Shown one piece after another: positions 13,302 through 63,965 of a DNA stretch of 64,000 nucleotides. Positions within the stretch are counted from its first letter, which is position 1, and every line of letters starts with the position of its first letter. This stretch comes from an uncultured virus (IMG/VR IMGVR_UViG_3300032665_002303) (Duplodnaviria; Heunggongvirae; Uroviricota; Caudoviricetes). A program made the position numbers and the translations under genes. Location: IMG/VR virus record IMGVR_UViG_3300032665_002303. One strand, given 5' to 3'. The notes beneath the pieces are model-generated. The model did no database searches, was not told where the DNA came from, and saw only the letters and a program-made list of their open reading frames with translations.

Positions 13302-13600
13302 CTATTTGGCTTCAGAGGCGACGCTCCGTTCAGCGGCATATCACTATTCGATTATGCCACTACCTTTCAGGTAATCGTAGGCATCTTTCCATGCGCTATC
13401 CTTAAAATAAGCCGACCCTACGTCCCTACCTTTCGGTTTGTCCTTAACCACATAAATGTCGAAATATTCCGGCATGAAGCATATCGCCTCTGGGTGTATT
13501 TTCCTTACCTCTTCTTCGTAATTTATTTCTGTGTCGCTCATTGTGTGTGTTAAATTGAAAAATGAAGTCGAACGGAGCGTCGCAACGATGCTAAACCATA
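13302..13600. repeat. Inverted repeat pair A (reverse copy 13302-13331, forward copy from 13570) bracketing a small gene
   Basis: CTATTTGGCTTCAGAGGCGACGCTCCGTTC ... GAACGGAGCGTCGCAACGATGCTAAA. Confidence 0.9.
13344..13541 (-). CDS. Small hypothetical protein (65 aa) inside pair A
   Basis: ATG at 13541 after an A-rich leader. The longer track ORF runs into the repeat. Confidence 0.6.
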   Translation of the reverse strand: MSDTEINYEEEVRKIHPEAICFMPEYFDIYVVKDKPKGRDVGSAYFKDSAWKDAYDYLKGSGIIE

Positions 13601-13605
13601 GCATG

Positions 13606-15249
13606 TTAGCCGACTACCGCAATTAAATCATTTTTGTGGAGAATAAGGTATGGAACACCTTCTATGTCTTCTGAAAATCCTGCTCCTCTCCTGAAGAGAA
13701 CAACAGCATCTTTTGATAGTCGCCCATCTTCTTCTACGGCGGCTACTATTCCCTTTACCGGCCGCTCCTTGGCGCTATCCGGTATCAATAAGTCCCCTGA
13801 CGTTGATTCGTCCAGCGGGCGTACCCATACCATGTTGTTCATTGGTACGATGTCTTGCAGTTTGATGTGCATGTTTGTATGTGATTTAGAGATGATAAAT
13901 TCAGGGGCGGCTATAAGAAACTTTTTGCCCAGTATATTTATTGGGTAAAGCTCCTCATATGGTGTAATTACATAGGCCGGGATGCTACGCGGGTAAACTG
14001 TTTTTGCAACTACCATGTGGTCCTTGCGAAGGTATTGCGCTACGGCCGTTTCTTCTTTCTTGATCAGTTCCATCTCTTTGGTGATAGCGGACCATTCTGC
14101 GGGCTGTAACTCCGGGTTAAACTGGCTTCGGTGGAGCATTATGCCATTCAGCTTCAGCTTTGCCTTTTCTGCGGCATTTTTCTTCTTGTGCTCGATCATG
14201 TTGCGCAGGTCATCTATGTTGCGATACTGCGGCAGGTCTGATCCCGATGCCAACAAGGCACTTTCGCTTTGATGGCCGCTCAGTATATCGAATTCCCATG
14301 CAAGGAATACACTGCCATTAACAGGCGTGATGTCTATTATCTTCCCGGTGTTGCGCTCATAATGAAGTTTGCCGAATATCTCTCGTGACTTTTCCTGCCA
14401 GCAGTTAATGACCCGGTACTGGAACGTAGCGCCGCCATGTTTACCATACTCATGGCCGATAACCCGGTAGTCTGTATTCTCTATTGAGTGATGTATAATA
14501 ACAGTGTCGTGAGCACTAACCTCCGGGTACATCTTTTGCGCTTCGGAACCAACGCCCATCACTTGTGCATACTGCAGGTTATGCAACATGGCGATAAACA
14601 GCGGGGACAGTGACAGCCCGGAGTCGCTGGTGGTTCTTTTGACGTGCTGGGCCGCAAGGTCTATCTTTATGATCATCCTGTATGGCGCCACTTCTCCATT
14701 TACGGTGAATATATCCATCTCGCCGATTACATCCAGCACTATCCCGTCTACCACCGCCTGGGCGTAGATGCCACCGGCGTCCAGCTTGGCATATTCTATG
14801 CGGTCACCTTTTTTCATGGAGTAGCCATCGGGCGCGTCAAATACAATCCCTTTCTGGGTGATTCCGGTGACGGATGCCGGAAGTATAAGTCCCGTTTCGC
14901 TCATTTCCAGTTCGGATATAGGCCGCACATAGATGCGATTTACTGGACGGTCATTCACTTCGTATATCTCGCGCTCGAAAACGATGTCGCAGTTTTCTCC
15001 ATCCACTTCGATCTCGTCCAGAAAGTCCACATCGGTGCGGTCTATCTTGTTGTAGGATACGGTGTCGCCCACATTGAATGTAGAATCAATGCAGGTAGAC
15101 ACTACCTCTCCCATCTCACAGAACTTCGCTGCATGTTCAGGGTTTAAAAGGCCGGAGTCGGTAACGGATGCCGGTATCTTTACAGGCTTTACTACTAATC
15201 GGGGGAAATGAGTGTTTAGCTTCTCATTGAAGTAAGGTAGTGTATGCAT
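13606..15249 (-). CDS. Multi-domain GroES (Cpn10)-like co-chaperonin
   Basis: C-terminal domain IVPMNNMVWVRP...SGDLLIPDSAKERPVKGIVAAV is clearly GroES-like. Three further GroES-like segments lie upstream. Adjacent to groEL. Confidence 0.7.
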   Translation of the reverse strand: MHTLPYFNEKLNTHFPRLVVKPVKIPASVTDSGLLNPEHAAKFCEMGEVVSTCIDSTFNVGDTVSYNKIDRTDVDFLDEIEVDGENCDIVFEREIYEVNDRPVNRIYVRPISELEMSETGLILPASVTGITQKGIVFDAPDGYSMKKGDRIEYAKLDAGGIYAQAVVDGIVLDVIGEMDIFTVNGEVAPYRMIIKIDLAAQHVKRTTSDSGLSLSPLFIAMLHNLQYAQVMGVGSEAQKMYPEVSAHDTVIIHHSIENTDYRVIGHEYGKHGGATFQYRVINCWQEKSREIFGKLHYERNTGKIIDITPVNGSVFLAWEFDILSGHQSESALLASGSDLPQYRNIDDLRNMIEHKKKNAAEKAKLKLNGIMLHRSQFNPELQPAEWSAITKEMELIKKEETAVAQYLRKDHMVVAKTVYPRSIPAYVITPYEELYPINILGKKFLIAAPEFIISKSHTNMHIKLQDIVPMNNMVWVRPLDESTSGDLLIPDSAKERPVKGIVAAVEEDGRLSKDAVVLFRRGAGFSEDIEGVPYLILHKNDLIAVVG

Positions 15250-15300
15250 GTGCGGTTTTTATTTTTGGTTTTAAAAGTTTTTAAGCGGGATTTCGTCTTA

Positions 15301-15713
15301 CTATTGGGCTTCAGTGGCGACGCTCCGTTCGGCGGCGTCACTACTATCATTTATCTTGATAATAAGAAATAGATCTGTCCGAATTATTTTTAGTTTTATA
15401 AATAAAGTTTAATAAATTTTTTGGCGAATCCAACAGGTAGCCGATTGCGGAAGGGGTATCACCTTCTGAATATTGTATGCAAACGATGTATCTGGTGGAA
15501 ATATCATGGCCGTGACCGACATCATTTATGGAAACAATAAGACCATTTTTGCCAACTTCCTTATTAACTAAAGTAGCCAACTCTTCAAACGACTTTATTT
15601 CTGTAGCTGCAGCAATCGAGTGTTTATAATCTTCTCTTCTCGGCCTAAATAACATAATGCAAGTTTAATATATAGCAGAACGATGAACGGAGCGTCGCAA
15701 CGATACTAAATAG
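15301..15713. repeat. Inverted repeat pair B (reverse 15301-15330, forward 15685-15713)
   Basis: CTATTGGGCTTCAGTGGCGACGCTCCGTTC ... GAACGGAGCGTCGCAACGATACTAAATAG. Confidence 0.9.
15347..15655 (-). CDS. Hypothetical protein inside pair B
   Basis: 102-aa ORF filling the space between the repeats, AT-rich. Confidence 0.6.
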   Translation of the reverse strand: MLFRPRREDYKHSIAAATEIKSFEELATLVNKEVGKNGLIVSINDVGHGHDISTRYIVCIQYSEGDTPSAIGYLLDSPKNLLNFIYKTKNNSDRSISYYQDK

Positions 15714-15829
15714 TGGCAATAAGGCGACTACAAAAAATCAATAACGACATTTATCGTGTAAAAGTAGTGATAATAATGAATAACCCAAACCTATAAAGGT
15801 ATTTTTGTTGAAATAAATACCCAACTACT

Positions 15830-16105
15830 ATGTCTGCAGGTGTATCATTTATGGTTAGTGCCCCGGTCTGGATAGATGGAACAGGTCAATTCCTGGGCGG
15901 CCAAGAGATAGGTGTGGCAAACGACGCACAGCCATTCGGCATGGTGCTGGTACCTGGCGGACATTCCGTTCCCGGCTTCGCTCCTACGCAACTCCCTCAG
16001 AATTGCTTATTTGTAAAAGACAAGAACTTAGGTGGACTATACCTTAACTGGACAATGGCTCAGTGGCAAAAGGCCGCGTTGCTGACAACAACAAATCCCG
16101 TTTGA
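15830..16105 (+). CDS. Hypothetical protein
   Basis: First ORF of the + strand lysis/structural operon. Confidence 0.6.
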   Translation: MSAGVSFMVSAPVWIDGTGQFLGGQEIGVANDAQPFGMVLVPGGHSVPGFAPTQLPQNCLFVKDKNLGGLYLNWTMAQWQKAALLTTTNPV

Positions 16106-16126
16106 TAAAACTTCACTGACGACCTT

Positions 16127-16477: not shown

Positions 16478-16478
16478 C

Positions 16479-29812: not shown

Positions 29813-30085
29813 CGTTGCGACGCTCCGTTCATCGTTCTGAAATCTATTGATCATTGTTTATAAAAACCAAAAATCATGAAAAAAGCAAGCGCACATCCCG
29901 GTTTTAAGGCAGTAGCGGCAAAGATAGCCTCAAAAGAAGGTGTAGGTAAAAAGGCTGCAGGCGCCATTCTGGCATCAGCGAGCCGCAAGGCCTCATCATC
30001 AGCAAAGGCTAAAAATCCACGCCTGAATAAAGTAAAGTAATCGTAGAACCGAAGTTGAACGGAGCGTCGCCACTGCGGCTAAATC
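29813..30085. repeat. Inverted repeat pair C (reverse 29813-29830, forward from 30057)
   Basis: CGTTGCGACGCTCCGTTC ... GAACGGAGCGTCGCCACTGCGGCTAAAT. Confidence 0.9.
29876..30040 (+). CDS. Small Lys/Ala-rich basic protein (54 aa) inside pair C
   Basis: MKKASAHPGFKAVAAKIASKEGVGKKAAGAILASASRKASSSAKAKNPRLNKVK*; below the ORF-track cutoff. Confidence 0.7.
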   Translation: MKKASAHPGFKAVAAKIASKEGVGKKAAGAILASASRKASSSAKAKNPRLNKVK

Positions 30086-30107
30086 AAGAGGCAAAAGCTA
30101 AGTAAAA

Positions 30108-30890: not shown

Positions 30891-30899
30891 AAAGAGCAA

Positions 30900-31592
30900 A
30901 TGGCAGAATTGATACAGGTAGCGCAGCGAGTGATGGACTTATACTATCAGAACTATACCCCGAACGACGCGTTCCTGGATATAGATGATTTTAAATTCCA
31001 TGTGGCTACTACGTACAGCACTATGCTCAACTCCATGTATCAGCAGGAAAAGAAGTTCAATAAGCAAATGGATGGCTTTGCGAACATCGAAATACCCGCT
31101 GCATGGATGATCATAGAGCGGCTGCCAATACAGTACGATAAAGACTGCGATGAATTTTTCGTGAAACTGAAATATCCGGTATTTTCGTTTGACTTCGACA
31201 GCACGGCCAACGCCCTGCAGGGGGTGCACAGTATCGGAAAGAAACACCAGCTATACCGGAAGATAGGGTTATTGGAGCGCAGGTTCCGGCAGATAATACC
31301 ACCGGCCGGAGCCATATTCTTCTTTTTGAACGAGCCAACGGTAATAAAAATGTGGGATCCGCCACCGGGTCAATTACCTATGGATGGCGCAGAAGTAGAG
31401 GTGCAGTATGCCCCAGCAGTAGTGGGAATGGAAAATAATTGTAAATTATCTGATAATATTATTGCTCCATTAACGGAACAGGTATTAACTTTACTTACAA
31501 AAGCAAGAGAAGGTACGTTTATACAGAAGGCAGATAATCAGAATCCTAATGTGGTTCCAGGACAACAGGTGGACCCGGCACTGGGAAGATAA
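30900..31592 (+). CDS. Putative tail ring / tubular protein
   Basis: Synteny and size. Confidence 0.45.
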   Translation: MAELIQVAQRVMDLYYQNYTPNDAFLDIDDFKFHVATTYSTMLNSMYQQEKKFNKQMDGFANIEIPAAWMIIERLPIQYDKDCDEFFVKLKYPVFSFDFDSTANALQGVHSIGKKHQLYRKIGLLERRFRQIIPPAGAIFFFLNEPTVIKMWDPPPGQLPMDGAEVEVQYAPAVVGMENNCKLSDNIIAPLTEQVLTLLTKAREGTFIQKADNQNPNVVPGQQVDPALGR

Positions 31593-31887
31593 TTTAACTT
31601 CGTTGCGACGCTCCGTTCATCGGCTGGTTATTAATTAAACTTTGATTATGCCTGAATTTAAGTATAATCCACTGAAGGGCAGAAACGAGTTGCTGGTAAA
31701 GAAGCAGGTAGAGTGCATGAATCGCTATGCAAAGGAGGGAAATTACGTTATTGCGGCAATGTATAGAGACATGGTGTGGGATTGCGAAACATTTTTTGGG
31801 AAATTTCCAGAGGATGCTAAGGTGTACAAAACATTTGGGCATAGAAGTGATGTTGTCGAACGGAGCGTCGCCACTGAGGCCCAATAG
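31592..31887. repeat. Inverted repeat pair D (reverse ~31592-31618, forward 31858-31887)
   Basis: TTTAACTTCGTTGCGACGCTCCGTTC ... GAACGGAGCGTCGCCACTGAGGCCCAATAG. Confidence 0.9.
31648..31887 (+). CDS. Hypothetical protein inside pair D, ending ERSVATEAQ on the repeat TAG
   Basis: ATG 31648; stop codon supplied by the repeat. Confidence 0.6.
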   Translation: MPEFKYNPLKGRNELLVKKQVECMNRYAKEGNYVIAAMYRDMVWDCETFFGKFPEDAKVYKTFGHRSDVVERSVATEAQ

Positions 31888-31925
31888 ATCGACAAAAGCT
31901 AAGTAAAAAAGCACACACAAAAACA

Positions 31926-33567: not shown

Positions 33568-34046
33568 TACAACTTATCCCCATAGAGATAGGCGCCCTGC
33601 GCGACTACGTAAAGAAGGCCTTCCAAGACGATCATGAATTACTAACCCAGTATCATATCTCTCCCGGAACTCTGGAACATTGCGTTGATCATACCATGGG
33701 ATTTATAATAGAAAATATCTCCCATTACAAAGAAGATATGACTATATTTGCTGTAGTATTAGTAGATAAAGTAATAGGGTACACAATTACTATCAAAAAT
33801 AATAACTCACCGAACGAGCTTTACTCATTCGGTATAAATGTAAAGTACAGGACCAAAGAAATACTGAAGTCATGGCTGCATGAGATAAGATTTATGATAG
33901 GAACGTTTTATGTTGTACTTTGGTCTAAAAATACAAGGGCTATAGATTTTTTTGAAAAGAATGGATGTGTAGTAGATAGAGAAAGAAAGATGTTAGATGA
34001 GGCGACAAAAACTTTGATTGTATCAAGGTCTGCGGCCATGATTTAG
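33564..34046 (+). CDS. GNAT-fold acetyltransferase-like protein
   Basis: FGINVKYR...NTRAIDFFEKNG motif, preceding ejection-like genes. Confidence 0.6.
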   Translation: MIQLIPIEIGALRDYVKKAFQDDHELLTQYHISPGTLEHCVDHTMGFIIENISHYKEDMTIFAVVLVDKVIGYTITIKNNNSPNELYSFGINVKYRTKEILKSWLHEIRFMIGTFYVVLWSKNTRAIDFFEKNGCVVDRERKMLDEATKTLIVSRSAAMI

Positions 34047-34252
34047 CATCGTTGCGACGCTCCGTTCATCGGTTGAATTACTATTAAACTTTTATTATGG
34101 AAAACATTGAATATCCATTTGAGTTTATTCCTGCCACAGAAGACGATGTTTGGACGGGGGAAGGTATGGTAAAGATGAGAGTTTCGATTCTTAATACTTA
34201 TGATGATAGTGGTGATGCCCCTGAACGGAGCGTCGCCACTGAAGCCAAATAG
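34041..34252. repeat. Inverted repeat pair E (reverse 34041-34067, forward 34223-34252)
   Basis: ATTTAGCATCGTTGCGACGCTCCGTTC ... GAACGGAGCGTCGCCACTGAAGCCAAATAG. Confidence 0.9.
34097..34252 (+). CDS. Small acidic protein (51 aa) inside pair E, ending ERSVATEAK
   Basis: MENIEYPFEFIPATEDDVWTGEGMVKMRVSILNTYDDSGDAPERSVATEAK*; read manually. Confidence 0.5.
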   Translation: MENIEYPFEFIPATEDDVWTGEGMVKMRVSILNTYDDSGDAPERSVATEAK

Positions 34253-34285
34253 TAAAGTAAAAGTTGACTAAATAAATTTTATAGT

Positions 34286-35432: not shown

Positions 35433-35465
35433 TAAGATAAAAGCTAAGTAAAAAAATAAAACATA

Positions 35466-37572: not shown

Positions 37573-37602
37573 GAACGGAGCGTCGCCACTGAAGCTAAAT
37601 AG
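37573..37602 (+). repeat. Short dispersed repeat, solo forward copy
   Basis: GAACGGAGCGTCGCCACTGAAGCTAAATAG, 32 nt before the giant gene ATG. Confidence 0.95.
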
Positions 37603-43600: not shown

Positions 43601-46600
43601 AATATCTCACTTCTCCAATCACCTGAACTACGATGGCAAGGTAAATGGAGATAAAGCATACGATCCGGCAAGTAAAGAGTTTAAAAGCATGTATGAGGCG
43701 CTATCCGCACAAGGAAAGCAATTCATGGATGACCTATTGGCTGAAAAGGAAACCGGCGGATGGATAGAATTAAATGATAAGCAAAAACAAGATTTTCACA
43801 CACTTCAAAATAAAGCAAATGAAACAGCAACCAAAGAATCCGCTGCCGGCAGCAATCCAGAAACTATCGAAAGACCAGCAGGCAAAAGCACTGATGCAGG
43901 CAGCGATGACCAGCAAAATGATGAAGCAAACGCCACAAAAGAAAAGTCCAATCAACCATCCGCAGAAGAACGGAGCGTCGCCACTGAAGCTAAATCAGAG
44001 GACAAAACCCCTGCTGCCAAAGAAAGGCAAGTAGAAAGTTTTACTACTGAAAAAGGAAGCGTATATAAGTACAACGATCAAGGTAAAACAGTAAGATTTA
44101 AAACAGCAGAAGGAAAAGCAAAAGAACCACAGGACCTTACAGTATTTGCAAAGTTCAAAGACGATGATCAGAACCAGCGTTTTCTCAATGGTGTACAAAA
44201 CCAAAAAGAAAGCGGAACAAAAGTTTACGTAGTTGATGAGCAAGGAAAGAAGTACGACACCAACGAACAGGTAAAAGGCAAAGATGTCCGACTGGCCCTG
44301 GTAGACACCAAGACCGGCAAGATGCTGGAAACGGTAGAAACAAAAACGCAGCCAGAGGTAGGCTACCATACTTTCGACCAGCGCAGATTCAAAGAAGGGC
44401 AAGAGTCCTTCCGGGAATCCCATATTGGCAACAAAGTATCTGAGATCAAGTATAAAGACGAAGCGGCAACAGAAGAAAAGCCAAATCAAGCCCCGAACGA
44501 AGAACGGAGCGTCGCAACGGAACCTAAACCGGAGGAGAAGACCCCTGCTCAAAGAATCGCCGACATAGACCTTGAAATAAAAAAGCAAGCAGCATCTCTT
44601 AAAATAGAATCTGATAAACGCGCCCATGCAAATAAAGAAGGAAACGTAGGAGACTTCAACAAGCATAACGCTAACTGGTACAAAAAGAGCGACAGAATAA
44701 CCGCGCTCAGAGAAGAGCGAGATGCACTGGCAAAAAAGCAAGAACAACAGGCCGGAGAGGAAGAGCGCCAAACCATATTCAGCAAACTTGCCGACTACAC
44801 TGAAAAAACCTACGCAAAAAACAAGGCAAACCATAAAGGAGAATTCCTATCCAGTTTCGGTATACCAAAAATGTCTGACCATGTACAGGACTTCTTGGTA
44901 GCAAGGGTGGTAGACGCACTAAAAGGCCTGCATAGCATTGAGATGGCAATTCGCAGGGCAATCCGGGAAACAAAAGAAAAGTACCCAGATGAGGCAAAAG
45001 AGTTATCATACGATCACGAAAGCGAAATAAGACATGCGCTTAATCTCAGGCCAGAACCACTAAAATCAGAACCTGCGCTACCATACGACCACAAAGAATA
45101 TGCAGAGGGCGCAATGGATGCGATAAGGAATGGAGAAGCTACATACGATGAAGTTATTGACGACCTGAGAAACAAAGAATTTGAAAACAGGGACGGAAGC
45201 CCGCTATCGGATCATGTAGCAGAAAATAACAGAGCCAAGATTCAAAACTACATAGACTGGCATACGAACGGACTGGGTGACAGAAATACAGAAGCTAAGG
45301 CCGAGCAACCAGCAGAAGGGGACGACACGACGAGCATAAAAAATGATACTACGCGATTAAAGAGGGAGGTAGCCGGACTAAATGAGGAGATTCCTGCCAT
45401 GAAAAAAACATTTGGCGATGCATGGGAGGAGGCAAAAGAAAAAATATTAGCCAACCCGGATGCGCCTATGGATTTGGTCCATGAGTTATCTAAGAAACCA
45501 AGACCAATCACTGATGTTGAGAATGCTATGCTGCTTCATCATCAAAATGATCAGGAAATTAAACTAAGTGCGGTAAATGACAAAATAAACAAGGCCGCAG
45601 AGGCTGGCGACCCAGCAGCCATAGCAGAGCACAAGGGGTCTAAAGCCAGGTTATTGGATGGGCTACAAAGGATATATGACGTGAACAAAGCGGTAGGCAC
45701 CGAAAACGCAAGAGGCTTGAGTGCAAGGAGGATGACGGTGGATCGAAAATACAATCTCGTACACATGCTTTCCGAGAAAAGAGCAACTGCCAATGATGGG
45801 CAGCCGCTGAGTGACGCCCAGCAGGCGGAGGTGGAGCGAATGCACAAAGAAATACGTGATACGCAAGAAAAGCTAGATAATTACGTAAAAGAATCCGAGT
45901 CTAAAATAATAGACCTGCAACGACAAGTGCTGTCTAAGCCTATAAAAAACAAGAAAAAAGCCGCTGATATATTAAGGGCATTTGCCGACAAAATGTCTAA
46001 GCCCATAAAAAATAGCGCATTTTCAGGACCCGTCGCCATTCCAGATGGTGTAATTGCGAAGGGAATCAGGGAGGTGGCTACGGGCTTAGAAAACGGGGAA
46101 GACCTTTCTAATTCAATTAAAAAGGCAGTTGTTGCGGCGATTAAAGAAAATCCAGAAATTGACGCAACCCAAATAGAGAGGGAGATAAATAATACAATAA
46201 TAAAGGCGGGAATAATAGAGCCGACAAGGCAGTCTAAAACAGTCAGGGATATGTCTGGTTTATTTTCCGGTGGCAAACTTAACTATGAAGCTGCGCGATT
46301 AAAAGTAGCGGCAGAAAGAGCAAAGGCTGAATATGAATTGAGTATAAAGAAAGATCAGGACGCGCAGATGTCTAAATGGGCTAAAACCCAAGACTGGCTT
46401 ATAAAGTGGCACCGAAATTCTCTGCTATCAAACCCACTAACAATAGCTAAGCTCGCCATGGCGGGACTTACCAGGGTGGCCATAACCGCACCAGAGGAAT
46501 TGGTGGGCGGGGTTTATTCTAAACTTATCCCAAAACTTGCAAATGGCGCAATAGGAGAGGGTGGTGGACTACATGTAAATGAGATGGCGGACGCAATTAA

Positions 46601-47758: not shown

Positions 47759-47787
47759 GAACGGAGCGTCGCAACGATGCTAAATAG
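47759..47787 (+). repeat. Short dispersed repeat, solo forward copy
   Basis: GAACGGAGCGTCGCAACGATGCTAAATAG. Confidence 0.95.
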
Positions 47788-48544: not shown

Positions 48545-49483
48545 ATGTTTGCTCAATTTAAAACACTCCCGCAATTATTTGACTTCTTCAAAGACGAAGA
48601 AACCTGCATGACTTATTGGGAGAATGTCCGATGGGGTGAAAATGGCATCACTTGCCCTCACTGTGAGGCGGGTAACCCATATAAAACCAACAGGGGGTAC
48701 AAATGTAAGAATATCGAGTGCCAAAAGAAATTTACCGCTATTGTAGGTACTATATTTGAGAATACAAAGATGCCTTTGCGTACATGGTTTGGCGCAATTT
48801 ACCTTTGTGCAAATCACAAGAAAGGAATTAGTTCTTTGCAGCTCGGCCGGGACTTGGGTATACATCAGTCAAGCGCATGGTTTTTATTGCATCGCATACG
48901 TGAAACCATGAAAGAAATACAGTGCATACCGCTGGGTGGTGAGGGGTGTATTGTAGAGGTGGATAACACGATTGTAGGCGGTAAGGCGAAAAACATGTGC
49001 AATAAGAAGCGTAAGTCATTCAAGAACGACAGGGACGCGGCAATGGCTAATAAAACAACCATGACGGCCTACATAGAGCGCGGAGGTAAGATACGTTTTG
49101 ACGTGAAGGATAAGGGCGAGAGTGAGCCGGAATTGCTGTTAAAGCACGTTGACACAGATTCTATACTTATGACTGATACTGCAAACGTTTATAACAAGGT
49201 GGGTGAAGGATTTGCGCAGCATGAAAAAGTAGACCACAACAACAATGAGTATGTGCGTGAAAAGATATGGCACACGAACACAATAGAGGGTGCATTCAGC
49301 CACTTTGACCGCATGGTGATAGGAATATATCACAACGTTAGTCGTAAGCACATGCAAGCCTACGCAAATGAGTGCGCATATCGTTACAATACCCGCAAGA
49401 TGGATCAACCTGTAAGGTTTGAAGATACCGTATTAAAATGTAGTGGTGTTAGGATAAAATACAACACCCTTATAGCAAAGTAG
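48545..49483 (+). CDS. IS1595-family DDE transposase (second, divergent copy)
   Basis: CPHC/CKNIEC Zn ribbon, KKGISSLQL, VEVDNTIVGG, LMTD, HTNTIEGAFS. Candidate left end GGTAACTAT at 48461. Confidence 0.93.
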   Translation: MFAQFKTLPQLFDFFKDEETCMTYWENVRWGENGITCPHCEAGNPYKTNRGYKCKNIECQKKFTAIVGTIFENTKMPLRTWFGAIYLCANHKKGISSLQLGRDLGIHQSSAWFLLHRIRETMKEIQCIPLGGEGCIVEVDNTIVGGKAKNMCNKKRKSFKNDRDAAMANKTTMTAYIERGGKIRFDVKDKGESEPELLLKHVDTDSILMTDTANVYNKVGEGFAQHEKVDHNNNEYVREKIWHTNTIEGAFSHFDRMVIGIYHNVSRKHMQAYANECAYRYNTRKMDQPVRFEDTVLKCSGVRIKYNTLIAK

Positions 49484-52197: not shown

Positions 52198-52540
52198 GCG
52201 CCGGAGGCTCAAAAGAGCATTTTTTGTAACTATAAATAAGCGCATATGTTACTTAGGTCTTTTATATTGATTTTAGAATTTCAGCGACTAGTTCTATTTA
52301 ACATTGCGTCAAATTATAGTTCAAAAAATTCCATTGGAGGCCGCATAGCCTGTTGCAAATATAGTACAAATGTTGAAACTGCAAAATAAATTTGCCCGAT
52401 GCAGGGCGCCGTAGTTGATGATTATTGATGAAGTTAAATCAGGGAACTGAAGCCTGGATTGGTGGGAGAACAAATTATACTTATTTTTGGATGATAATAG
52501 TGATGCCGCCGAACGGAGCGTCGCCACCGCAGCTAAATAG
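52198..52540 (+). repeat. Long direct repeat copy B1 (matches 56085-56427), ending in a short repeat at 52511-52540
   Basis: Near-identical over ~340 nt at offset 3887. Confidence 0.95.
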
Positions 52541-56084: not shown

Positions 56085-56427
56085 GCGCCGGAGGCTCAAA
56101 AGAGCATTTTTTGTAACTATAAATAAGCGCATATGTTATTTAGGTCTTTTAGATTGATTTTAGAATTTTAGCGAATAGTTCTATTTAACATTGCGTCAAA
56201 TTATAGTTCAAAAAATTCCATTGGAGGCCGCATAGCCTGTTGCAAATATAGTACAAATGTTGAAACTGCAAAATAAATTTGCCCGATGCAGGGCGCCGTA
56301 GTTGATGATTATTGATGAAGTAAAATCAAGGAACTGAAGCCCGGATTGGTGGGCCAACAAATTATACTTATTTTTGGATGATAGTAGCGATGTTGTCGAA
56401 CGGAGCGTCGCCACTGAACCCTAATAG
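56085..56427 (+). repeat. Long direct repeat copy B2, ending in a short repeat at 56398-56427
   Basis: Matches 52198-52540. Confidence 0.95.
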
Positions 56428-58758: not shown

Positions 58759-58894
58759 AAACAATTTTATTGAGCCAGCTATCTCTCTCCGATGGAGCGT
58801 CCGTTGCGACGCTCCATTCATCTTTCTGCCCCTGATGAAAATATTTTAAAATAAATTTGGTGGTTAAATAATTAGTGCTACATTTGTGATAATT

Positions 58895-59077
58895 ATGGCA
58901 GGCGCAAAGAGAAACAACTACCTTAAAGAAAAGCCAACAGAACCCTTCAGGATGAGGTTTAGCGAGAAGTACGCTAAGAAATTAGTGGACAAAATAAATA
59001 AGGTGGCAGAGGATGACGACAGATCATTTCCCGGTGTGATAGAAAGGATATTAGTTCAACATTTTAATTTAAAATAA
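58895..59077 (+). CDS. Arc/ribbon-helix-helix DNA-binding protein
   Basis: PFRMRFS...KINKVAEDDDRSFPGVIERIL pattern; TACATTTG promoter at 58879. Confidence 0.6.
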   Translation: MAGAKRNNYLKEKPTEPFRMRFSEKYAKKLVDKINKVAEDDDRSFPGVIERILVQHFNLK

Positions 59078-59361
59078 TGACTGGTAAATTTTGGTTTATA
59101 TTGACACTTCAGATTGCCGCCGTATTCTTCGTGGCTATATCAATGTCGTTTATTGGTGATTATTTTCACGGATTCTTTGGTGATTATTTTCACAAAATAC
59201 CTGAAAAATGTTGGATAGGAGCAGTATATGAAGCAAATGAGCCACATTGGCACTGGGGATATAGGCATGTGCTGTGGTGTTTTATGGGCGTATTCATATT
59301 TTTAGTTCAGGTGTTTCGCATTGGAGTATTTATATATCGAGAAGCCCAATCAAAGCACTGA
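59077..59361 (+). CDS. Small membrane protein
   Basis: Two TM segments with HWHWGYRH loop. Confidence 0.6.
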   Translation: MTGKFWFILTLQIAAVFFVAISMSFIGDYFHGFFGDYFHKIPEKCWIGAVYEANEPHWHWGYRHVLWCFMGVFIFLVQVFRIGVFIYREAQSKH

Positions 59362-59434
59362 ACGATCAACGGAGCGTCGCAACGATGCTAAATAGTGGCA
59401 AAAAACCTGACAAACAAAACCTAAAAATAGAGAA

Positions 59435-59920: not shown

Positions 59921-59941
59921 CTTTTAAGCCAGCGGGCGTCG

Positions 59942-60784
59942 CTATGATTAAACATCGTTGCGACGCTCCGTTCGACTTCATACTTTCAATTTCACACACA
60001 AATTAAAATAGGTATGTGCAAAGAGCATCCAATATTATTTTCTACACCAATGGTGGAGGCTATTATTGACGGAAGAAAAACAATGACGAGGCGCATAGTT
60101 AAGCCAATGAGGTCCCAGAGGTGGCTATCGATGGATACGCTATTAAAATCGCCATCGGCCTATATGTGCATTATTGACGGAGATGATTGGGCGCAATTCA
60201 GGCACCCATTAGCCGGACAGTTTGCGTTCGGTGTTCAAAATGAGGAAGATAGCCCCTTAACCTGCATTAAACACCCTTACGGGAATATCGGGGATGTGTT
60301 ATATGTTCGCGAAACATGGCAGCACACGGATAGTCTTGGAGTAAATAGGGAGGATGAAAATTCGGGCTATATCTACAAGGCTAGTGAGAATGGTAGGGAG
60401 TGGGAATCCAGCGATGATAATTGGATATGGAAGCCTTCTATTTTTCTGCCAAAAGAAGGATCGAGAATATGGATTCAGATATCCGATATAAAGATGGAGC
60501 GACTACAAGATATTTCGCAAGAAGATGCAAGGCTGGAGGGTATTTTACCGGCGCCACATAGGCCGTCAATGCCGTCTTGCCCATTACATAAAGATAAATC
60601 AATGCATAGAGATTGCTTCGTGTGTGCATTTAAAACGCTATGGAATAAAATAAATGGAAAGTCTGGGAATGGGTGGCTTATAAATCCGTGGGTGTGGGCA
60701 ATATCTTACAATGTGTTATCTACAACAGGCAGGCCAAATAGTATTCCTGTTTTTGAACGGAGCGTCGCCACTGAAGCTAAATAG
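59942..60784. repeat. Inverted repeat pair H (reverse 59942-59973, forward 60755-60784)
   Basis: CTATGATTAAACATCGTTGCGACGCTCCGTTC ... GAACGGAGCGTCGCCACTGAAGCTAAATAG. Confidence 0.9.
60014..60784 (+). CDS. Phage ASCH/PUA-like protein, ending ERSVATEAK
   Basis: PILFSTPMVEAIIDGRKTMTRR, GDVLYVRETW, WKPSIFLP, ERLQDIS, NPWVW family motifs. Confidence 0.7.
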   Translation: MCKEHPILFSTPMVEAIIDGRKTMTRRIVKPMRSQRWLSMDTLLKSPSAYMCIIDGDDWAQFRHPLAGQFAFGVQNEEDSPLTCIKHPYGNIGDVLYVRETWQHTDSLGVNREDENSGYIYKASENGREWESSDDNWIWKPSIFLPKEGSRIWIQISDIKMERLQDISQEDARLEGILPAPHRPSMPSCPLHKDKSMHRDCFVCAFKTLWNKINGKSGNGWLINPWVWAISYNVLSTTGRPNSIPVFERSVATEAK

Positions 60785-60811
60785 TAAGGAAAAAGCTAAG
60801 TACCCAAAATT

Positions 60812-61123: not shown

Positions 61124-61177
61124 TAAATTAAGCCAAGTTGCGACGCTCCGTTCATCTTCATACTTTCAATTAAAAAC

Positions 61178-61501
61178 ATGTCAACCATAGAAATAAATAA
61201 TGAATTACTTGGAAATCTGTCATTCGATAAGTTTGATGCCCTTTGCAATGCCCTAAAATGCACCGCCCTCGGCAAGACCAAAAAAAATACGTGGATAATA
61301 GAGGCAGAGGATCCAATTAGTTTATTTAATCTTGGCGGACATCTTGAAATGGAAATTGAATTTATTTCAACTACCAGTACAGATGATGGAAGAAAGGAGG
61401 TTGTCAAAGTTAAAAACATGAATACGAAACAATTCAACGTGTTTGTGGGCGAAGTAATCATGGCGCAAAGCGATGTTGCTAAACCAGAAAACGGTAATTA
61501 A
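61178..61501 (+). CDS. Hypothetical protein inside pair I
   Basis: 107-aa ORF. Confidence 0.55.
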   Translation: MSTIEINNELLGNLSFDKFDALCNALKCTALGKTKKNTWIIEAEDPISLFNLGGHLEMEIEFISTTSTDDGRKEVVKVKNMNTKQFNVFVGEVIMAQSDVAKPENGN

Positions 61502-61523
61502 TAATTATTTTAAAATACAGACA

Positions 61524-61766
61524 ATGATTGACCAATTGAAGGTAGCACAAGTGATATTGTGCGAAAAAATATCAAGGGGAGACGGAAAGGATACGCCCAT
61601 TCGCAAAATTATGGAGGTTGTTGACTTGGATGGAAAATTCATAGCTGAGTATGATTTTTTAAGTTTTACTATAGAGGAGGTGATGGAATTATTACCGAGT
61701 ATAGATGTTGATACAAGGGCCTCTATATATAGATCGCTATTAAAAGCCCGGGACTGCGCAAGGTGA
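61524..61766 (+). CDS. Hypothetical protein inside pair I
   Basis: ATG 61524; RGDGKDTPIR motif. Confidence 0.55.
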   Translation: MIDQLKVAQVILCEKISRGDGKDTPIRKIMEVVDLDGKFIAEYDFLSFTIEEVMELLPSIDVDTRASIYRSLLKARDCAR

Positions 61767-61833
61767 TGTCGCTGAACGGAGCGTCGCCACTGAAGCCAAA
61801 TAGATAAACTAACTTCTGCTTAAAAATATTTTT

Positions 61834-62472: not shown

Positions 62473-62547
62473 CCAGCGGCGGTGCCGTGATTAGGCAGCC
62501 GTTGCGACGCTCCGTTCGACTGAATTTAACAATTAAACAACCATATT

Positions 62548-63030
62548 ATGCAGGGACTTACACCAAGCCAATTATCAGAGGTATCAGAATTCGTACAGAA
62601 ACACCATAAATTTGGATATGTCAGAGAGGATGATAGATACGCAGGGCATGAAGGGTACTGTATAAAGTATATTGATGCTTGCTATGACTCTCGGCAGGCT
62701 GATTTTTGGGCTATAACATTCAGGGGTTGTGGTAGAATTAACTTCTCCACGAACTCTCAATATCCAAAACCATATACTACATTATTTGATTGGATAATGG
62801 GTTTTTTAAAATACGAATGGCTGCAAGAGGGGAAAAGATATGATCACATGTCAGAAAAGTCGGAAGCCCTGCTGGTTAATAGTTTCCCTAATGGAGAGAT
62901 AGAAACAGAATGGAGCGATATTGATATGATGAATGCTTATTGTGCAGATTTGGAAGACGGAGCAACTTCAGATGATATGGCAGATGCTTGTAAGTGGGTC
63001 ATTCAATATAGAGAAAAACAGAATAAATAA
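62548..63030 (+). CDS. Hypothetical protein
   Basis: 160-aa ORF with A-rich leader. Confidence 0.6.
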   Translation: MQGLTPSQLSEVSEFVQKHHKFGYVREDDRYAGHEGYCIKYIDACYDSRQADFWAITFRGCGRINFSTNSQYPKPYTTLFDWIMGFLKYEWLQEGKRYDHMSEKSEALLVNSFPNGEIETEWSDIDMMNAYCADLEDGATSDDMADACKWVIQYREKQNK

Positions 63031-63056
63031 CCGACCGTACAAGAATTAAACAGTTT

Positions 63057-63368
63057 ATGGGATTAAATATAAGTATATATCGGGTCAATATTCAATTAGA
63101 CGATGAGGGGTATTTTGTATCAGAAGAGAGGGTAAATGAACAAGTTGGCTGGGATAGCCTCAGATATGCGGGGGATACTGATTTTTCCAAAGCGAATTTA
63201 TGTCTTCAAATAAAAGACAGAGAGAGTGTATATTACCGTCCTGAAAATTTCGAATCAACGTTTGCTTGGATAAACGGAATTGTTCCTACTGGAAATAAAA
63301 ACAGATGGATTGAAATTCTAAATAAAATGAAAGGACAACCAGACTTATATTTCTTCTTTGGATGGTGA
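63057..63368 (+). CDS. Hypothetical phage protein
   Basis: MGLNISIYR-type N-terminus common in small phage proteins. Confidence 0.6.
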   Translation: MGLNISIYRVNIQLDDEGYFVSEERVNEQVGWDSLRYAGDTDFSKANLCLQIKDRESVYYRPENFESTFAWINGIVPTGNKNRWIEILNKMKGQPDLYFFFGW

Positions 63369-63758
63369 GTAGCAAACCGACCGTACAAGTGTGCGACGCA
63401 ACGCAGCCGATAGTAGCAACAAATCTGACAACCAAAAATTTACATACAATGCAAACAGAAATACCTTTTAAGATCGAAGGAAATACAGCCCCATTTACAT
63501 GCAGGAGCAGAAGAAGGCGCTGTGGAAGCAATTTGTGAATAGATTTGAGGTGCTAAAAGAGAAAGCGCAGAGTACATATCCAAACGGAAAGCCATGGGAG
63601 GACATTCTGGCTGAAATGTTGCAAAACGAATATAATCTGACGGTAAAGTAAATATCCTTTCCTCTTGAAACAAGAACGCCCGCTATATGCGGGCGTTTAC
63701 TTTTGTATGGAATAGCTAAATTATTAATAGAACCCAGAACGGAGCGTCGCAACGATGC

Positions 63759-63965
63759 CTAATCAGTGGCCTCCGGCCGGCCCAACGGTTCATCAAAACT
63801 AACAGTAATAATACACCCACTATCAGTAAGAGAGAATATTATCTTACGCAACTCCTTTCTTGTTTCAAAGCGGCTGGTCTTGATAACACTCTCTAGTTTG
63901 GCGGCAGAAGGGTTTACTATTGTTATATGCCCTCCATTGTATAAATACTTTTTGTTTACAGGCAT
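63759..63965 (-). CDS. Small hypothetical protein
   Basis: Preceded on the minus strand by GCTAAGTACCCAAAA, the leader seen after other repeats. Confidence 0.5.
   Translation of the reverse strand: MPVNKKYLYNGGHITIVNPSAAKLESVIKTSRFETRKELRKIIFSLTDSGCIITVSFDEPLGRPEATD

What the first reader, a model, noticed from the sequence alone, without database searches (positions are those of the whole stretch)
13302..63763. Ten inverted repeat pairs enclose small accessory genes as polarised cassettes
Seen: every minus-strand copy is followed within 0.15-1.25 kb by a plus-strand copy, and the interval holds 1-3 small genes. The pairs are 13302-13600, 15301-15713, 29813-30085, 31592-31887, 34041-34252, 35024-35432, 58802-59395, 59942-60784, 61137-61803 and 62500-63763. 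The site upstream of the enclosed gene is always the CGCAAC subtype. The downstream site is the CGCC subtype in 8 of 10. The polarity flips with gene direction in the two minus-strand cassettes. Six cassettes sit inside or at the edge of backbone operons (chaperonin, tail and ejection genes). Inference: this may be a gene-cassette capture or exchange system with non-identical left and right sites. Alternatively the two ends form a 14-17-bp long-range mRNA/ssDNA stem that loops out the passenger gene for processing or regulation.
Basis: partly seen in the sequence, partly recalled or inferred. Interest (0 to 1): 0.88.

Follow-up and report, generated by a model that had tools for sequence, protein, structure and literature searches.

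The report
Host-type repeat brackets phage gene cassettes
A lake-water phage is studded with copies of a short DNA repeat that also litters the genomes of its likely bacterial hosts, and inverted pairs of this repeat enclose small extra genes that related phages lack, which suggests a way for phages to gain and lose genes.

Summary
The 13-nt core AACGGAGCGTCGC occurs 30 times in the window (28 exact, 2 with one mismatch; 0.7 expected). All ten minus copies are followed by a plus copy 170-1234 bp away, with 1-3 small ORFs in between. The gene-upstream copy is the CGCAAC type in 10/10 pairs, the downstream copy CGCC in 8/10.

The sites are copies of a ~100-nt non-coding interspersed repeat of some Chitinophagaceae genomes: up to 254 exact cores per genome, but none in 51 of 81 family genomes sampled. 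Seven other phage contigs also carry it.

Five cassettes could be compared with relatives (59-78% identity in a 520-aa structural protein). All five are missing there as blocks, sites included, at tight gene junctions. Three other phage contigs each carry one such pair around one ORF.

Best reading (about 0.5): promoterless accessory-gene cassettes bounded by inverted copies of a host-type repeat, gained and lost as units. No transposase, recombinase, target duplication or excision junction was found.

The long-range RNA stem is thermodynamically plausible, but the arms are not co-adapted. Closest analogues are PeSL cassettes, pdif modules, mobile insertion cassettes and REP elements. I rate it a new variant of a known kind.

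The parts
13302..13600 (-). Cassette 1. Cores 13318-13330 (minus, CGCC type, 3' of gene) and 13571-13583 (plus, CGCAAC type, 5' of gene). ORF 13344-13604 (-), 86 aa, lies between GroEL and the Cpn10-fusion gene.
   Evidence: No Pfam or PHROG match. No relative locus covers this junction.
15301..15713 (-). Cassette 2. Cores 15317-15329 (minus, CGCC) and 15686-15698 (plus, CGCAAC). ORF 15347-15655 (-), 102 aa.
   Evidence: The ORF and both sites are absent from L285 and L282. No family or Atlas lead.
29813..30107 (+). Cassette 3. Cores 29817-29829 (minus, CGCAAC) and 30058-30070 (plus, CGCC). ORF 29876-30040, 54 aa. The A-rich tail runs to the ATG at 30108.
   Evidence: The G006 junction is 8 nt. 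L282 has no core and no homologue. The RNA fold pairs the arms.
31592..31925 (+). Cassette 4. Cores 31605-31617 (minus, CGCAAC) and 31859-31871 (plus, CGCC). ORF 31642-31887, 81 aa, ends inside the right-hand element. The tail runs to the ATG at 31926.
   Evidence: The same junction is 2 nt in G006 and 6 nt in L282.
34041..34285 (+). Cassette 5. Cores 34054-34066 (minus, CGCAAC) and 34224-34236 (plus, CGCC). ORF 34097-34252, 51 aa.
   Evidence: Absent in G006 and L282. The RNA fold pairs the arms.
35024..35465 (+). Cassette 6. Cores 35042-35054 (minus, CGCAAC) and 35404-35416 (plus, CGCC). ORF ending at 35432 (130 aa from TTG 35040; the true start is uncertain).
   Evidence: The G006 junction is 6 nt.
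58802..59395 (+). Cassette 7. Cores 58806-58818 (minus, one mismatch; 11-6-11 near-palindrome) and 59368-59380 (plus, CGCAAC). Holds the only Bacteroidota-type promoter match within a cassette (58856-58886). ORFs 58886-59077 and 59077-59361.
   Evidence: No family match.
59942..60811 (+). Cassette 8. Cores 59960-59972 (minus, CGCAAC) and 60756-60768 (plus, CGCC). ORF 60014-60784, 256 aa.
   Evidence: Matches phrog_874, unknown function, E 1.9e-58.
61137..61833 (+). Cassette 9. Cores 61140-61152 (minus, CGCAAC) and 61775-61787 (plus, CGCC). ORFs 61178-61501 and 61473-61766.
   Evidence: No family match.
62500..63763 (+). Cassette 10. Cores 62504-62516 (minus, CGCAAC) and 63738-63750 (plus, CGCAAC). 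ORFs 62548-63030, 63057-63368 and 63362-63538.
   Evidence: No family or Atlas lead.
203..215 (+). Solo sense copy (CGCAAC type), 76 nt upstream of ORF 292-2919. It ends the 233-nt repeat block 1-233.
6243..6255 (+). Solo sense copy (CGCAAC type), 73 nt upstream of ORF 6329-11530. It ends the repeat block 6041-6273 (95% identical to 1-233). A core-less element-like piece lies just upstream.
11549..11561 (+). Solo sense copy, 18 nt after the stop of ORF 6329-11530, convergent with GroEL.
37574..37586 (+). Solo sense copy (CGCC type), 48 nt upstream of the giant ORF.
40717..40729 (+). In-frame copy (one mismatch) inside the giant ORF 37635-47741.
43969..43981 (+). In-frame copy (CGCC type) inside the giant ORF, read as ERSVATEAK.
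44503..44515 (+). In-frame copy (CGCAAC type) inside the giant ORF, read as ERSVATEPK.
47760..47772 (+). Solo sense copy (CGCAAC type), 18 nt after the giant ORF. A promoter match at 47815-47846 follows.
52512..52524 (+). Solo sense copy (CGCC type), 72 nt upstream of ORF 52597-53259. It lies just past the 300-nt repeat block 52198-52497.
56399..56411 (+). Solo sense copy (CGCC type), 40 nt upstream of the terminase large subunit gene 56452-58758. It lies just past the repeat block 56085-56384 (97% identical to 52198-52497).
2998..3978 (+). IS1595-family DDE transposase gene. Listed only as a candidate trans-acting enzyme; no link to the repeat was shown.
   Evidence: Pfam PF12762 at 1.9e-40 and PF12760 at 1.3e-16. 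No core copy is adjacent.
48545..49483 (+). Second IS1595-family DDE transposase gene. Candidate only; no link shown.
   Evidence: Pfam PF12762 at 1.8e-29. No core copy lies between 47772 and 52512.

Best explanation
The 'sites' are copies of a non-coding interspersed repeat. The repeat is about 60-110 nt long and has an invariant 13-17-nt core, GAACGGAGCGTCGC(A/C)AC. It belongs to certain Chitinophagaceae bacteria, the likely host lineage, and occurs sporadically in their phages. This phage carries it at about nine times the density of the richest host genome sampled. Almost every non-tight gene junction in the affected regions consists of one copy. The ten pairs have their 5' ends facing inward and their 3' tails outward. 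They bound small accessory genes, which have no family match or none of known function and mostly lack a promoter. These units have been gained or lost as whole blocks (repeat, gene or genes, repeat) at operon junctions. Inferred, not shown: the repeat is the substrate of the gain and loss. This could work through an unidentified sequence-specific enzyme that keeps the core invariant, or through recombination on the shared core between phages and host. Inverted flanks survive because direct flanks at short range would delete the gene. The downstream CGCC-type copy restores punctuation for the next backbone gene, with stop codons in all three frames and an A-rich leader 37-72 nt before its ATG. 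In a read-through transcript the two arms can pair, which may affect expression but need not be the selected function.
For: Real and non-random: 30 copies against 0.7 expected. Near neighbours are inverted in 19 of 20 cases (P 2e-5) and subtype polarity holds in 10 of 10 (P 3.6e-4). Host repeat: the exact 17-mer occurs in at least 123 genome loci. Of the 80 fetched, 71 are Bacteroidota, mostly Chitinophagaceae, and share the flank consensus. Five genomes hold 79-299 copies each at up to 1 mismatch, against 1-6 for the reversed control. Twelve of 81 family genomes have 5-254 exact copies and 51 have none. In 150 other genomes of the class there are 0-1 copies. Five zero-copy genomes show no variant within 3 mismatches. 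Similarity between copies spans about -40 to +60 around the core. Flanks are more alike within a genome than between genomes, for example 0.58 against 0.38-0.47. Not RNA or protein: no Rfam match, no consensus fold or covariation, fold z-score -0.57, and only short inconsistent ORFs. Block gain and loss: 13 collinear orthologue pairs with G006 and 18 tblastn hits with L282. Cassettes 2-6 and their sites are absent at junctions of 2-112 nt or, in L282, at a 400-nt gap without homologue or core. G006 (91 kb) and L285 (16.9 kb) have no copy. L282 and L283 have copies at other junctions. The same unit occurs elsewhere: G001, G003 and L283 each have one minus/plus pair around one ORF. Seven of 8 IMG/VR contigs found with the 19-mer carry the full consensus. 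Two otherwise unrelated phage loci share only a block of about 112-123 nt, 96-100% identical. It runs from the element to the next ATG. Promoterless: only 1 of 10 cassettes holds one of the window's 11 matches to TTTG-N17-22-TAnnTTTG. Every intergenic core sits in a short gap between consecutive ORFs.
Against: No mobilising enzyme was identified. No core lies within 1.5-2 kb of 17 of the 23 Y1-transposase matches, or of any of the 3 IS1595 matches, in five carrier genomes. IS1595 is missing from 3 of those 5 genomes. G001, rated 100% complete, has a cassette but no IS1595 gene. The phage's own two transposase genes are not next to sites. The single element has no terminal inverted repeats, and no target duplication could be defined. 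The outer edge of the gene-upstream copy lies 7-47 nt from the upstream stop codon (22 nt for cassette 1; at cassette 2 the neighbouring gene diverges). That is not a fixed terminus. The relatives are only 59-78% identical, so deletion in them cannot be separated from insertion here. In bacteria most copies are single. Genes between inverted pairs are ordinary: VWA, S41 peptidase, TerC, Omp85, inositol monophosphatase and others in 11 ORFs. An invariant core amid flanks only 40-58% alike could equally mean a function at each copy. Cassettes 1 and 7-10 could not be compared with any relative.
Confidence: 0.5

Rival explanations
1. Portable intergenic expression module, working like PeSL. In this reading the sense copy with its A-rich tail is primarily a regulatory or punctuation unit. 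It would act as translation stop and restart, leader, processing or protein-binding signal, and would be used by host and phage. It spreads by ordinary recombination. Antisense copies and the alternation merely reflect selection against deletion-prone direct repeats.
For: All 17 intergenic copies that are sense to local transcription lie upstream of a gene start or just after a gene end. Thirteen of them sit 37-76 nt before the next start. All 12 CGCC-type copies are sense: 11 intergenic and one in frame in the giant ORF. Type B has stop codons in all three frames (read). A block of about 112 nt that ends at the ATG is identical in two unrelated phage loci in front of different genes. Two pairs of recent duplicates (95-97%) of upstream blocks lead up to an element and precede different genes. 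The core is invariant while the flanks drift.
Against: Relatives express the same backbone genes from tight junctions without it. In bacteria, orientation relative to genes shows no rule. A same-strand start follows within 120 nt in 22 of 73 cases and a convergent stop in 28 of 73. Fifty-one of 81 family genomes lack it entirely, with no variant form in the five checked. The element holds no Bacteroidota promoter consensus, shows no conserved structure and has no Rfam match.
Confidence: 0.25
2. Site-specific recombination modules, working like Acinetobacter pdif modules, shufflons or integrons. In this reading the core is the binding and crossover site of a tyrosine-type recombinase of host or phage. 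Modules bounded by inverted sites are then exchanged or inverted.
For: Alternating orientation of neighbouring sites in 19 of 20 cases. Modules are present or absent as blocks. Some copies form an 11-6-11 near-palindrome. At 58806 the right arm matches the reverse complement of the left arm in 10 of 11 positions, and 29817 and locus L207 are similar. One arm is conserved and the other degenerate in most copies (read). The left and right sites are not identical.
Against: No recombinase or integrase domain was found in the roughly 60 window ORFs scanned. About 6 kb of the source contig lies outside the window. Hundreds of active sites in one chromosome would scramble it. The A-upstream, B-downstream polarity in 10 of 10 pairs argues against frequent inversion. 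No inverted or excised form was seen, though the read data could not have shown one. Integron criteria fail: sites alternate instead of sharing one orientation, there is no attC-like fold, and there is no intI.
Confidence: 0.12
3. Long-range RNA stem. In a read-through transcript the antisense and sense copies pair. This loops out the passenger gene for RNase III processing or for control of its translation, and that pairing is the selected function.
For: Folding cassettes 5 and 3 as RNA pairs the two arms in both the minimum-energy and the centroid structures (z -3.1 and -3.3). The arms share a perfect G+C-rich block of 13-18 nt. Nine of 10 cassettes lack their own promoter match, so they would be co-transcribed.
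Against: Partners are not co-adapted. Their complementarity ranks 6th to 17th of 19 among possible plus partners. The A/B combination shortens the duplex compared with A/A pairs, whose blocks reach 31 nt. The one-mismatch copy 58806 has no compensating change in its partner. The stem does not explain the seven solo copies or the host copies, which are mostly single. No RNA data exist.
Confidence: 0.08
4. A translated C-terminal peptide tag or coding motif (ERSVAT...), or a chance pattern.
For: Three copies are read in frame in the giant ORF. Four of the 10 cassette ORFs, and the ORFs in G003 and L283, run into the element in the same frame.
Against: Across 72 bacterial and 28 window copies, the frame is closed 2-60 codons upstream with no consistent start. 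Upstream genes end in different frames. Conservation is at nucleotide level. Chance is excluded.
Confidence: 0.02

Closest known systems
PeSL mobile regulatory cassettes of T4-type phages (PMC2839356, PMC4122927; only the search listing and abstract openings were seen)
   Same: Short conserved intergenic motifs flank small, variable, mostly unknown genes in phage genomes. They coincide with insertions, deletions and replacements between relatives. An identical intergenic block occurs in front of different genes in different phages.
   Different: As I recall them, PeSLs are promoter plus stem-loop composites in one orientation, private to the phages. Here the element has no promoter consensus or conserved hairpin. 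It flanks the genes in inverted orientation. It is also a high-copy repeat of the host chromosome.
dif modules bounded by pdif (XerC/XerD) sites in Acinetobacter plasmids (PMC6449649, PMC13141974; search listing and abstract openings only)
   Same: Discrete accessory-gene modules without their own transposase. Modules are shuffled between replicons.
   Different: The orientation rule of pdif sites (oppositely oriented, alternating along the replicon) is recalled, not seen in the listing. pdif sites are 28-bp Xer sites related to the chromosomal dif site and have a known recombinase. Here only a few copies show an 11-6-11 layout, no recombinase is known, and the host carries tens to hundreds of copies.
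Mobile insertion cassettes (MIC231 and related; PMC3913671, search listing only) and MITE-bounded composites
   Same: Passenger genes without a transposase lie between inverted repeats. Trans-mobilisation is presumed.
   Different: MIC ends match the inverted repeats of a known insertion sequence and come with target duplications. Here the ends match no identified insertion sequence, no target duplication could be defined, and the left edge is not fixed.
REP/BIME/REPIN elements, including the CGTC-tagged REPs that lack a dedicated transposase (PMC3733652, passages read; PMC3116915, listing only)
   Same: Short intergenic repeats with tens to hundreds of copies. Distribution is lineage-specific and inverted dimers are frequent. 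Some copies lie within genes. The core contains CGTC. As reported for CGTC REPs, no transposase gene is flanked by the repeat.
   Different: REPs are 20-40-nt palindromes, with stems of 8-9 bp in the CGTC families. This element shows no conserved hairpin and is about 100 nt long with an asymmetric core. No case of a REP-type repeat this dense in a phage was found, but that was not searched for systematically.
Rickettsia palindromic elements (recalled; mentioned in passages of PMC3733652)
   Same: Repeat copies are inserted in frame into protein-coding genes and translated. Here there are three copies in the giant ORF.
   Different: These belong to another lineage and sequence family, and no gene cassettes are involved.
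Integron gene cassettes and phage 'morons' (both recalled)
   Same: Small accessory genes are inserted between conserved genes. Like integron cassettes, most are promoterless.
   Different: Integrons have an integrase and attC sites in one orientation. Morons carry their own promoter and terminator and have no bounding repeats.

Membership tests
Integron gene cassette array | An adjacent intI tyrosine-recombinase gene with attI | tested here: not met
   No recombinase or integrase domain in the roughly 60 window ORFs scanned with Pfam or PHROGs. About 6 kb of the source contig lies outside the window.
Integron gene cassette array | attC sites that all share one orientation, one per cassette, and fold as imperfect palindromes | tested here: not met
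   Neighbouring sites alternate in 19 of 20 cases. There is no conserved fold or covariation.
REP/REPIN-RAYT system | The repeat unit is a short palindrome (hairpin) | tested here: not met
   No consensus structure over 72 copies. No covarying Watson-Crick column pairs. Mean fold z-score -0.57 for 40 of the 72 copies. Only a few copies are near-palindromic.
REP/REPIN-RAYT system | A RAYT (Y1 transposase) gene flanked by the repeat | tested here: not met
   Of 23 PF01797 matches in five carrier genomes, 17 were examined. None has a core (up to 2 mismatches) within 1.5-2 kb.
REP/REPIN-RAYT system | High-copy, intergenic, lineage-specific distribution | tested here: met
MITE / mobile insertion cassette | Terminal inverted repeats that match those of an autonomous insertion sequence | tested here: not met
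   No core near the 3 IS1595 matches in the five genomes. IS1595 is absent from 3 of the 5. The phage's own IS1595 genes are not next to a core. Other insertion-sequence families were not tested.
MITE / mobile insertion cassette | Target-site duplication at defined termini | tested here: inconclusive
   The relatives are too diverged to align the junction DNA. The upstream edge is variable, 7-47 nt from the upstream stop codon.
MITE / mobile insertion cassette | Passenger genes between the inverted repeats and no transposase inside | tested here: met
   none of the cassette ORFs matches a transposase.
PeSL cassettes | The motif combines a promoter and a stem-loop terminator | tested here: not met
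   The element consensus holds no TTTG/TAnnTTTG promoter pattern and no conserved stem-loop.
PeSL cassettes | Motif positions coincide with gene gain, loss or replacement between related phages | tested here: met
pdif (Xer) modules | Modules bounded by oppositely oriented sites that alternate along the replicon | tested here: met
   (19 of 20 near neighbours inverted).
pdif (Xer) modules | A site made of two 11-bp recombinase arms around a 6-bp spacer, related to the host dif site | tested here: inconclusive
   An 11-6-11 near-palindrome is seen in 58806 and, less well, in 29817 and 40717. Most copies keep one arm only. The host dif site was not identified.
Structured RNA family (Rfam) | A match to a curated covariance model | tested here: not met
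   The window at gathering threshold gives only the tRNA. Seven bacterial loci at E up to 1 give nothing.
DNA uptake signal sequences (USS/DUS) | Preferential uptake of DNA carrying the motif by a competent host | not testable with these tools
   Only the resemblance is noted: a short invariant core, both orientations, inverted pairs, in-frame copies. The copy density is far lower than recalled for USS/DUS.

The most novel reading that the evidence does not exclude
The invariant core is the recognition site of a still unidentified sequence-specific recombination or transposition system shared by a Chitinophagaceae lineage and its phages. That system would move promoterless gene cassettes, bounded by inverted and non-identical copies of the site, into operon junctions. 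It would be a phage counterpart of integron or pdif-module systems, with the host chromosome's hundreds of copies serving as a reservoir and landing pad.
Probability: 0.2. Interest if true: 0.85.

Novelty: new variant of a known kind. Interest (0 to 1): 0.62.

Why it matters
How phages acquire small accessory genes inside tightly packed, co-translated operons is poorly understood. Known repeat-guided cases are few, chiefly PeSLs in T4-type phages and MPMEs in mycobacteriophages.

Here a single repeat family links a bacterial lineage and several unrelated phages. In one phage it bounds ten accessory-gene units that relatives lack. If the repeat is the substrate of that gain and loss, it offers a tractable system for finding the responsible enzyme or recombination route. 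It would also be a sequence handle for locating accessory genes, possibly including counter-defence genes, in Bacteroidota phages.

The repeat is a strong host-prediction marker for uncultured phages, pointing to Chitinophagaceae. The host repeat itself appears undescribed. It has no Rfam match, and a full-text search of the paper library for three 12-nt forms of the core (both strands and an RNA spelling) found nothing.

Tried and rejected
- **Alternative genetic code or stop read-through.** This idea came from the TAG next to the motif. Standard-code ORFs already cover the window well, and no suppressor tRNA is present, only tRNA-Met. Dropped.
- **Coding tag (ERSVAT).** Rejected.
- **INPHARED phage collection.** No match by megablast of 25 kb or by tblastn of the 873-aa protein.
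- **14-mer scan of IMG/VR.** It was replaced by a 19-mer scan.
- **Whole-genome tools.** No genome is held for the window. The metagenome loci are not in held records.
- **Earlier-findings look-ups.** Nothing was returned. One call failed because it held too many words.
- **Sequencing runs.** Twenty lake or freshwater DNA runs hold the stretch, and no RNA holder is listed.
- **Laid contigs of four runs.** Only short Logan contigs at depth 1-7 were available. Three joints lie at element copies (29839/34071 on opposite strands, 30084 to 31592, and 34067 to 34215). Each is in one contig with only 26-31 letters on the shorter side, as expected where an assembler joins repeats. I do not use them as evidence of inversion or excision. 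The loose ends at element positions are other copies of the repeat.
- **Empty bacterial sites for exact termini.** Genus relatives are only about 70-75% identical in the neighbouring gene, so intergenic DNA cannot be aligned.
- **Sigma-54, ECF or single-subunit RNA polymerase promoter.** These readings of the core were considered by eye only. They were set aside because the spacing does not fit and because of the antisense and host copies.
- **ESM Atlas look-ups of two cassette proteins.** No usable lead.
- **First folding script.** It timed out and was rerun on 40 of the 72 copies with 15 mononucleotide shuffles each.
- **Rows dropped.** Nine of the 80 fetched bacterial loci (L134, L141, L147, L177, L187, L188, L194, L198, L208) come from other phyla and lack the flank consensus. 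They were dropped as chance hits before the consensus and context counts.

Full report
**1. The observation**

The 13-nt core AACGGAGCGTCGC occurs 28 times exactly and twice with one mismatch in the 64-kb window. Shuffles give 0.71 matches on average and at most 3. A further hit with two mismatches, at 14423, lies inside a gene and lacks the flank consensus, so I treat it as chance.

- Twenty copies are on the plus strand and ten on the minus strand.
- Every minus copy is followed by a plus copy.
- Each interval holds 1-3 ORFs of 51-256 aa.
- The copy on the 5' side of the enclosed gene is the CGCAAC type (A) in 10 of 10 pairs.
- The copy on the 3' side is the CGCC type (B) in 8 of 10 pairs.
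- The arrangement flips in the two minus-strand cassettes. Hypergeometric P = 3.6e-4.
- The perfect complementary block between partners is 13-18 nt.

Two facts were not in the finding:

- Ten more plus copies exist. Seven are solo intergenic copies and three lie in frame inside the giant ORF 37635-47741, where they read (E/Q)(R/G)SVAT.
- Neighbouring intergenic copies no more than 2.5 kb apart are inverted in 19 of 20 cases (P = 2e-5). Of the six farther neighbours, five are direct.

In the 58.8-63.8 kb stretch the orientation simply alternates at every gene junction. The sequence alone cannot say there which genes are 'inside'.

**2. What the sites are**

They are not private to the phage.

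- Of the 80 loci fetched, 71 are from Bacteroidota, mostly Chitinophagaceae. Named genera include Chitinophaga, Segetibacter, Flavihumibacter, Ferruginibacter, Terrimonas, Puia, Flavisolibacter, Niabella and Taibaiella.
- These 71 share an extended consensus around the core.
- The other nine come from other phyla and lack that consensus. I dropped them as chance.

Copy numbers and distribution:

| Sample | Result |
|---|---|
| Five carrier genomes, up to 1 mismatch | 79-299 copies each; reversed-pattern control 1-6 |
| One complete chromosome | 22 copies |
| 81 genomes of the family | 12 have 5-254 exact copies; 51 have none |
| 150 other genomes of the class | 0-1 copies |
| Five zero-copy family genomes | nothing above control within 3 mismatches of the 17-mer |

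Similarity between copies extends from about -40 to +60 around the core. Flanks are somewhat more alike within a genome than between genomes, for example 0.58 against 0.38-0.47. The core itself is nearly invariant.

The element is not a known or evident RNA:

- No Rfam match in the window or in seven bacterial loci.
- No consensus fold over 72 copies.
- No covarying base-paired columns.
- Mean fold z-score -0.57 for 40 of the 72 copies.

It is not a coding motif either. The frame that is open in the giant ORF is closed 2-60 codons upstream elsewhere, with no consistent start.

In bacteria the element is intergenic and shows no fixed orientation to its neighbours. A same-strand start follows within 120 nt in 22 of 73 cases, a convergent stop in 28, a same-strand stop precedes in 18 and a divergent start in 15. 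Most copies are single, and both kinds of inverted pair occur.

The phage carries one copy per 2.1 kb. The richest genome sampled carries one per 19 kb.

**3. The cassettes are gained and lost as blocks**

Relatives were found with the 520-aa structural protein:

| Locus | Identity | Cores found |
|---|---|---|
| G006 (= L130 = L284) | 59% | none in 91 kb |
| L282 | 67% | one, at a junction where the window has overlapping genes |
| L283 | 68% | three: one minus/plus pair around a small ORF, and a solo copy after the 520-aa gene, where the window has none |
| L285 | 78% | none in 16.9 kb |
| L281 | 100% | the window's own contig |

Gene order is collinear, with 13 orthologue pairs against G006 and 18 tblastn hits in L282.

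Five cassettes are covered by at least one relative. All five are absent there, together with both sites:

- Cassette 2: absent in L285 (112-nt gap) and in L282 (400-nt gap with no homologue and no core).
- Cassette 3: absent in G006 (8-nt junction) and in L282.
- Cassette 4: absent in G006 (2 nt) and in L282 (6 nt). The upstream protein's C-terminus is conserved right up to the stop codon that abuts the element.
- Cassette 5: absent in G006 and in L282.
- Cassette 6: absent in G006 (6 nt).

These comparisons rest. Cassettes 1 and 7-10 are not covered by any relative.

The same kind of unit occurs outside this lineage:

- IMG/VR contigs G001 (46 kb, rated complete) and G003 each carry one minus/plus pair around one ORF.
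- Seven of the 8 contigs found with a 19-mer carry the full element consensus.
- Two otherwise unrelated phage loci, L123 and L128, share only a block of about 112-123 nt, 96-100% identical. It runs from just after the upstream 'AATAG' box, through the core, to the ATG of the next gene, and the genes that follow differ.

**4. How the cassettes are built**

- Every intergenic core lies in a short gap between consecutive ORFs.
- All 17 intergenic copies that are sense to local transcription lie upstream of a gene start or just after a gene end. Thirteen of them sit 37-76 nt before the next start.
- All 12 type B copies are sense (11 intergenic and one in frame in the giant ORF). They carry stop codons in all three frames and an A-rich tail.
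- The antisense copy is always type A. Its outer edge lies 7-47 nt from the upstream stop codon, so it is not a fixed terminus. It often supplies or overlaps that stop.
- The window has 11 matches to the Bacteroidota-type promoter pattern against 2.6 expected. Only one falls within a cassette (58856-58886, cassette 7). The cassettes are therefore mostly promoterless and would depend on read-through.
- Eight of the enclosed ORFs' ten cassettes have no Pfam or PHROG match at all. Cassette 8 matches a PHROG of unknown function. Two Atlas look-ups gave nothing usable.

**5. The search for a mechanism**

- The window encodes two IS1595-family DDE transposases, but neither is next to a core.
- G001 has a cassette and no such gene.
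- Three of the five carrier genomes lack the IS1595 family, and none of the three bacterial IS1595 matches has a core nearby.
- Of 23 Y1-transposase matches in the five genomes, 17 were examined and none has a core within 1.5-2 kb.
- Genes between or beside bacterial inverted pairs are ordinary: 11 ORFs including VWA, S41 and C1 peptidases, a 2OG oxygenase, Omp85, a thioesterase, a kinase, TerC and inositol monophosphatase.
- No recombinase domain was found among the roughly 60 window ORFs scanned.
- Read evidence was not usable. Only low-depth contigs were available, and the three joints at repeat copies have 26-31 letters on the shorter side.

The arms can pair as RNA. They do so in the minimum-energy and centroid folds of cassettes 5 and 3 (z -3.1 and -3.3). 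However, partners are no better matched to each other than to other copies (rank 6-17 of 19). The A/B combination makes the duplex shorter than A/A pairs would be.

A few copies form an 11-6-11 near-palindrome, best at 58806, which recalls a tyrosine-recombinase core site. Most copies keep only one arm.

**6. Reading**

Shown:

- A host-lineage interspersed repeat has colonised this phage's gene junctions.
- Inverted pairs of it bound small, mostly promoterless accessory genes.
- At the five junctions that could be compared, these units are present or absent as whole blocks.
- The same unit and the same repeat occur in unrelated phages.

Inferred:

- The repeat is the substrate of gain and loss, whether by an unknown core-specific enzyme or by recombination on the shared core.
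- Inverted flanks persist because short-range direct flanks would delete their content.
- The type B copy restores punctuation for the next gene.

I give this reading about 0.5. The rivals are a primarily regulatory module (0.25), a site-specific recombination module system (0.12) and a selected long-range RNA stem (0.08). These readings overlap in part.

**7. Comparison with known systems and novelty**

The arrangement works most like four known systems:

- PeSL cassettes of T4-type phages.
- pdif modules of Acinetobacter plasmids.
- Mobile insertion cassettes.
- REP/BIME repeats. This includes the CGTC-tagged REPs, for which no transposase is known (passages of PMC3733652 read).

It fails defining tests for each of them (see the membership table).

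The three in-frame copies recall Rickettsia palindromic elements.

A full-text search for three 12-nt forms of the core found no paper. The other literature searches were for analogues, not for this element.

I rate it a new variant of a known kind, with interest 0.62. The anatomy is clear and unusually dense, the link to a host repeat is new to me, and the mechanism is open and testable.

Noticed in passing
window 31926-32168 (+): An 80-aa protein with a Thoeris anti-defence 2-like (Tad2-like) domain (PF11195, E 7.9e-06, just over the cut-off). It sits in the structural operon and is conserved in relatives G006 and L282.
   Followed up: partly
window 1-233 and 6041-6273: Two 233-nt direct repeats (95% identical), each ending in a repeat copy, flank a 6-kb block. 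The block holds an 875-aa ORF, an IS1595 transposase, a D12 N6-adenine DNA methyltransferase, a PD-(D/E)XK nuclease and tRNA-Met (5694-5768, minus strand). It looks like an inserted accessory module.
   Followed up: partly
window 52198-52497 and 56085-56384: Two 300-nt repeats (97% identical), each followed directly by a type B copy, lie in front of different genes: ORF 52597-53259 and the terminase large subunit gene 56452-58758. Each contains a TAnnTTTG box just upstream of the element.
   Followed up: partly
window 11661-13259 (-) and 13606-15249 (-): A phage-encoded GroEL-type chaperonin, and a 547-aa protein whose C-terminal ~80 residues are a Cpn10 (GroES) domain. Cassette 1 sits between them.
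   Followed up: no
window 37635-47741 (+): A giant 3368-aa ORF with a histidine-phosphatase domain (residues about 1511-1659). It contains three in-frame copies of the repeat in what look like low-complexity linker regions.
   Followed up: partly
L128 about 3040-3090 (IMG/VR contig 3300043676_000010): In this unrelated phage contig the repeat lies directly after what looks like the 3' end of a tRNA gene (a T-arm-like sequence). This was judged by eye and not checked with a tRNA finder.
   Followed up: no
window 6165-6212 and 52418-52470: Core-less pieces that resemble the flanking boxes of the repeat lie just upstream of the solo copies at 6243 and 52512. This suggests tandem or decayed copies.
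   Followed up: no
bacterial loci L150, L165, L171, L204, L210: A subfamily of the bacterial repeat carries a further conserved 5' extension that ends in ...GGGTAAACTGCGACGC. This is a partial inverted copy of the core about 26 nt upstream of the core.
   Followed up: no
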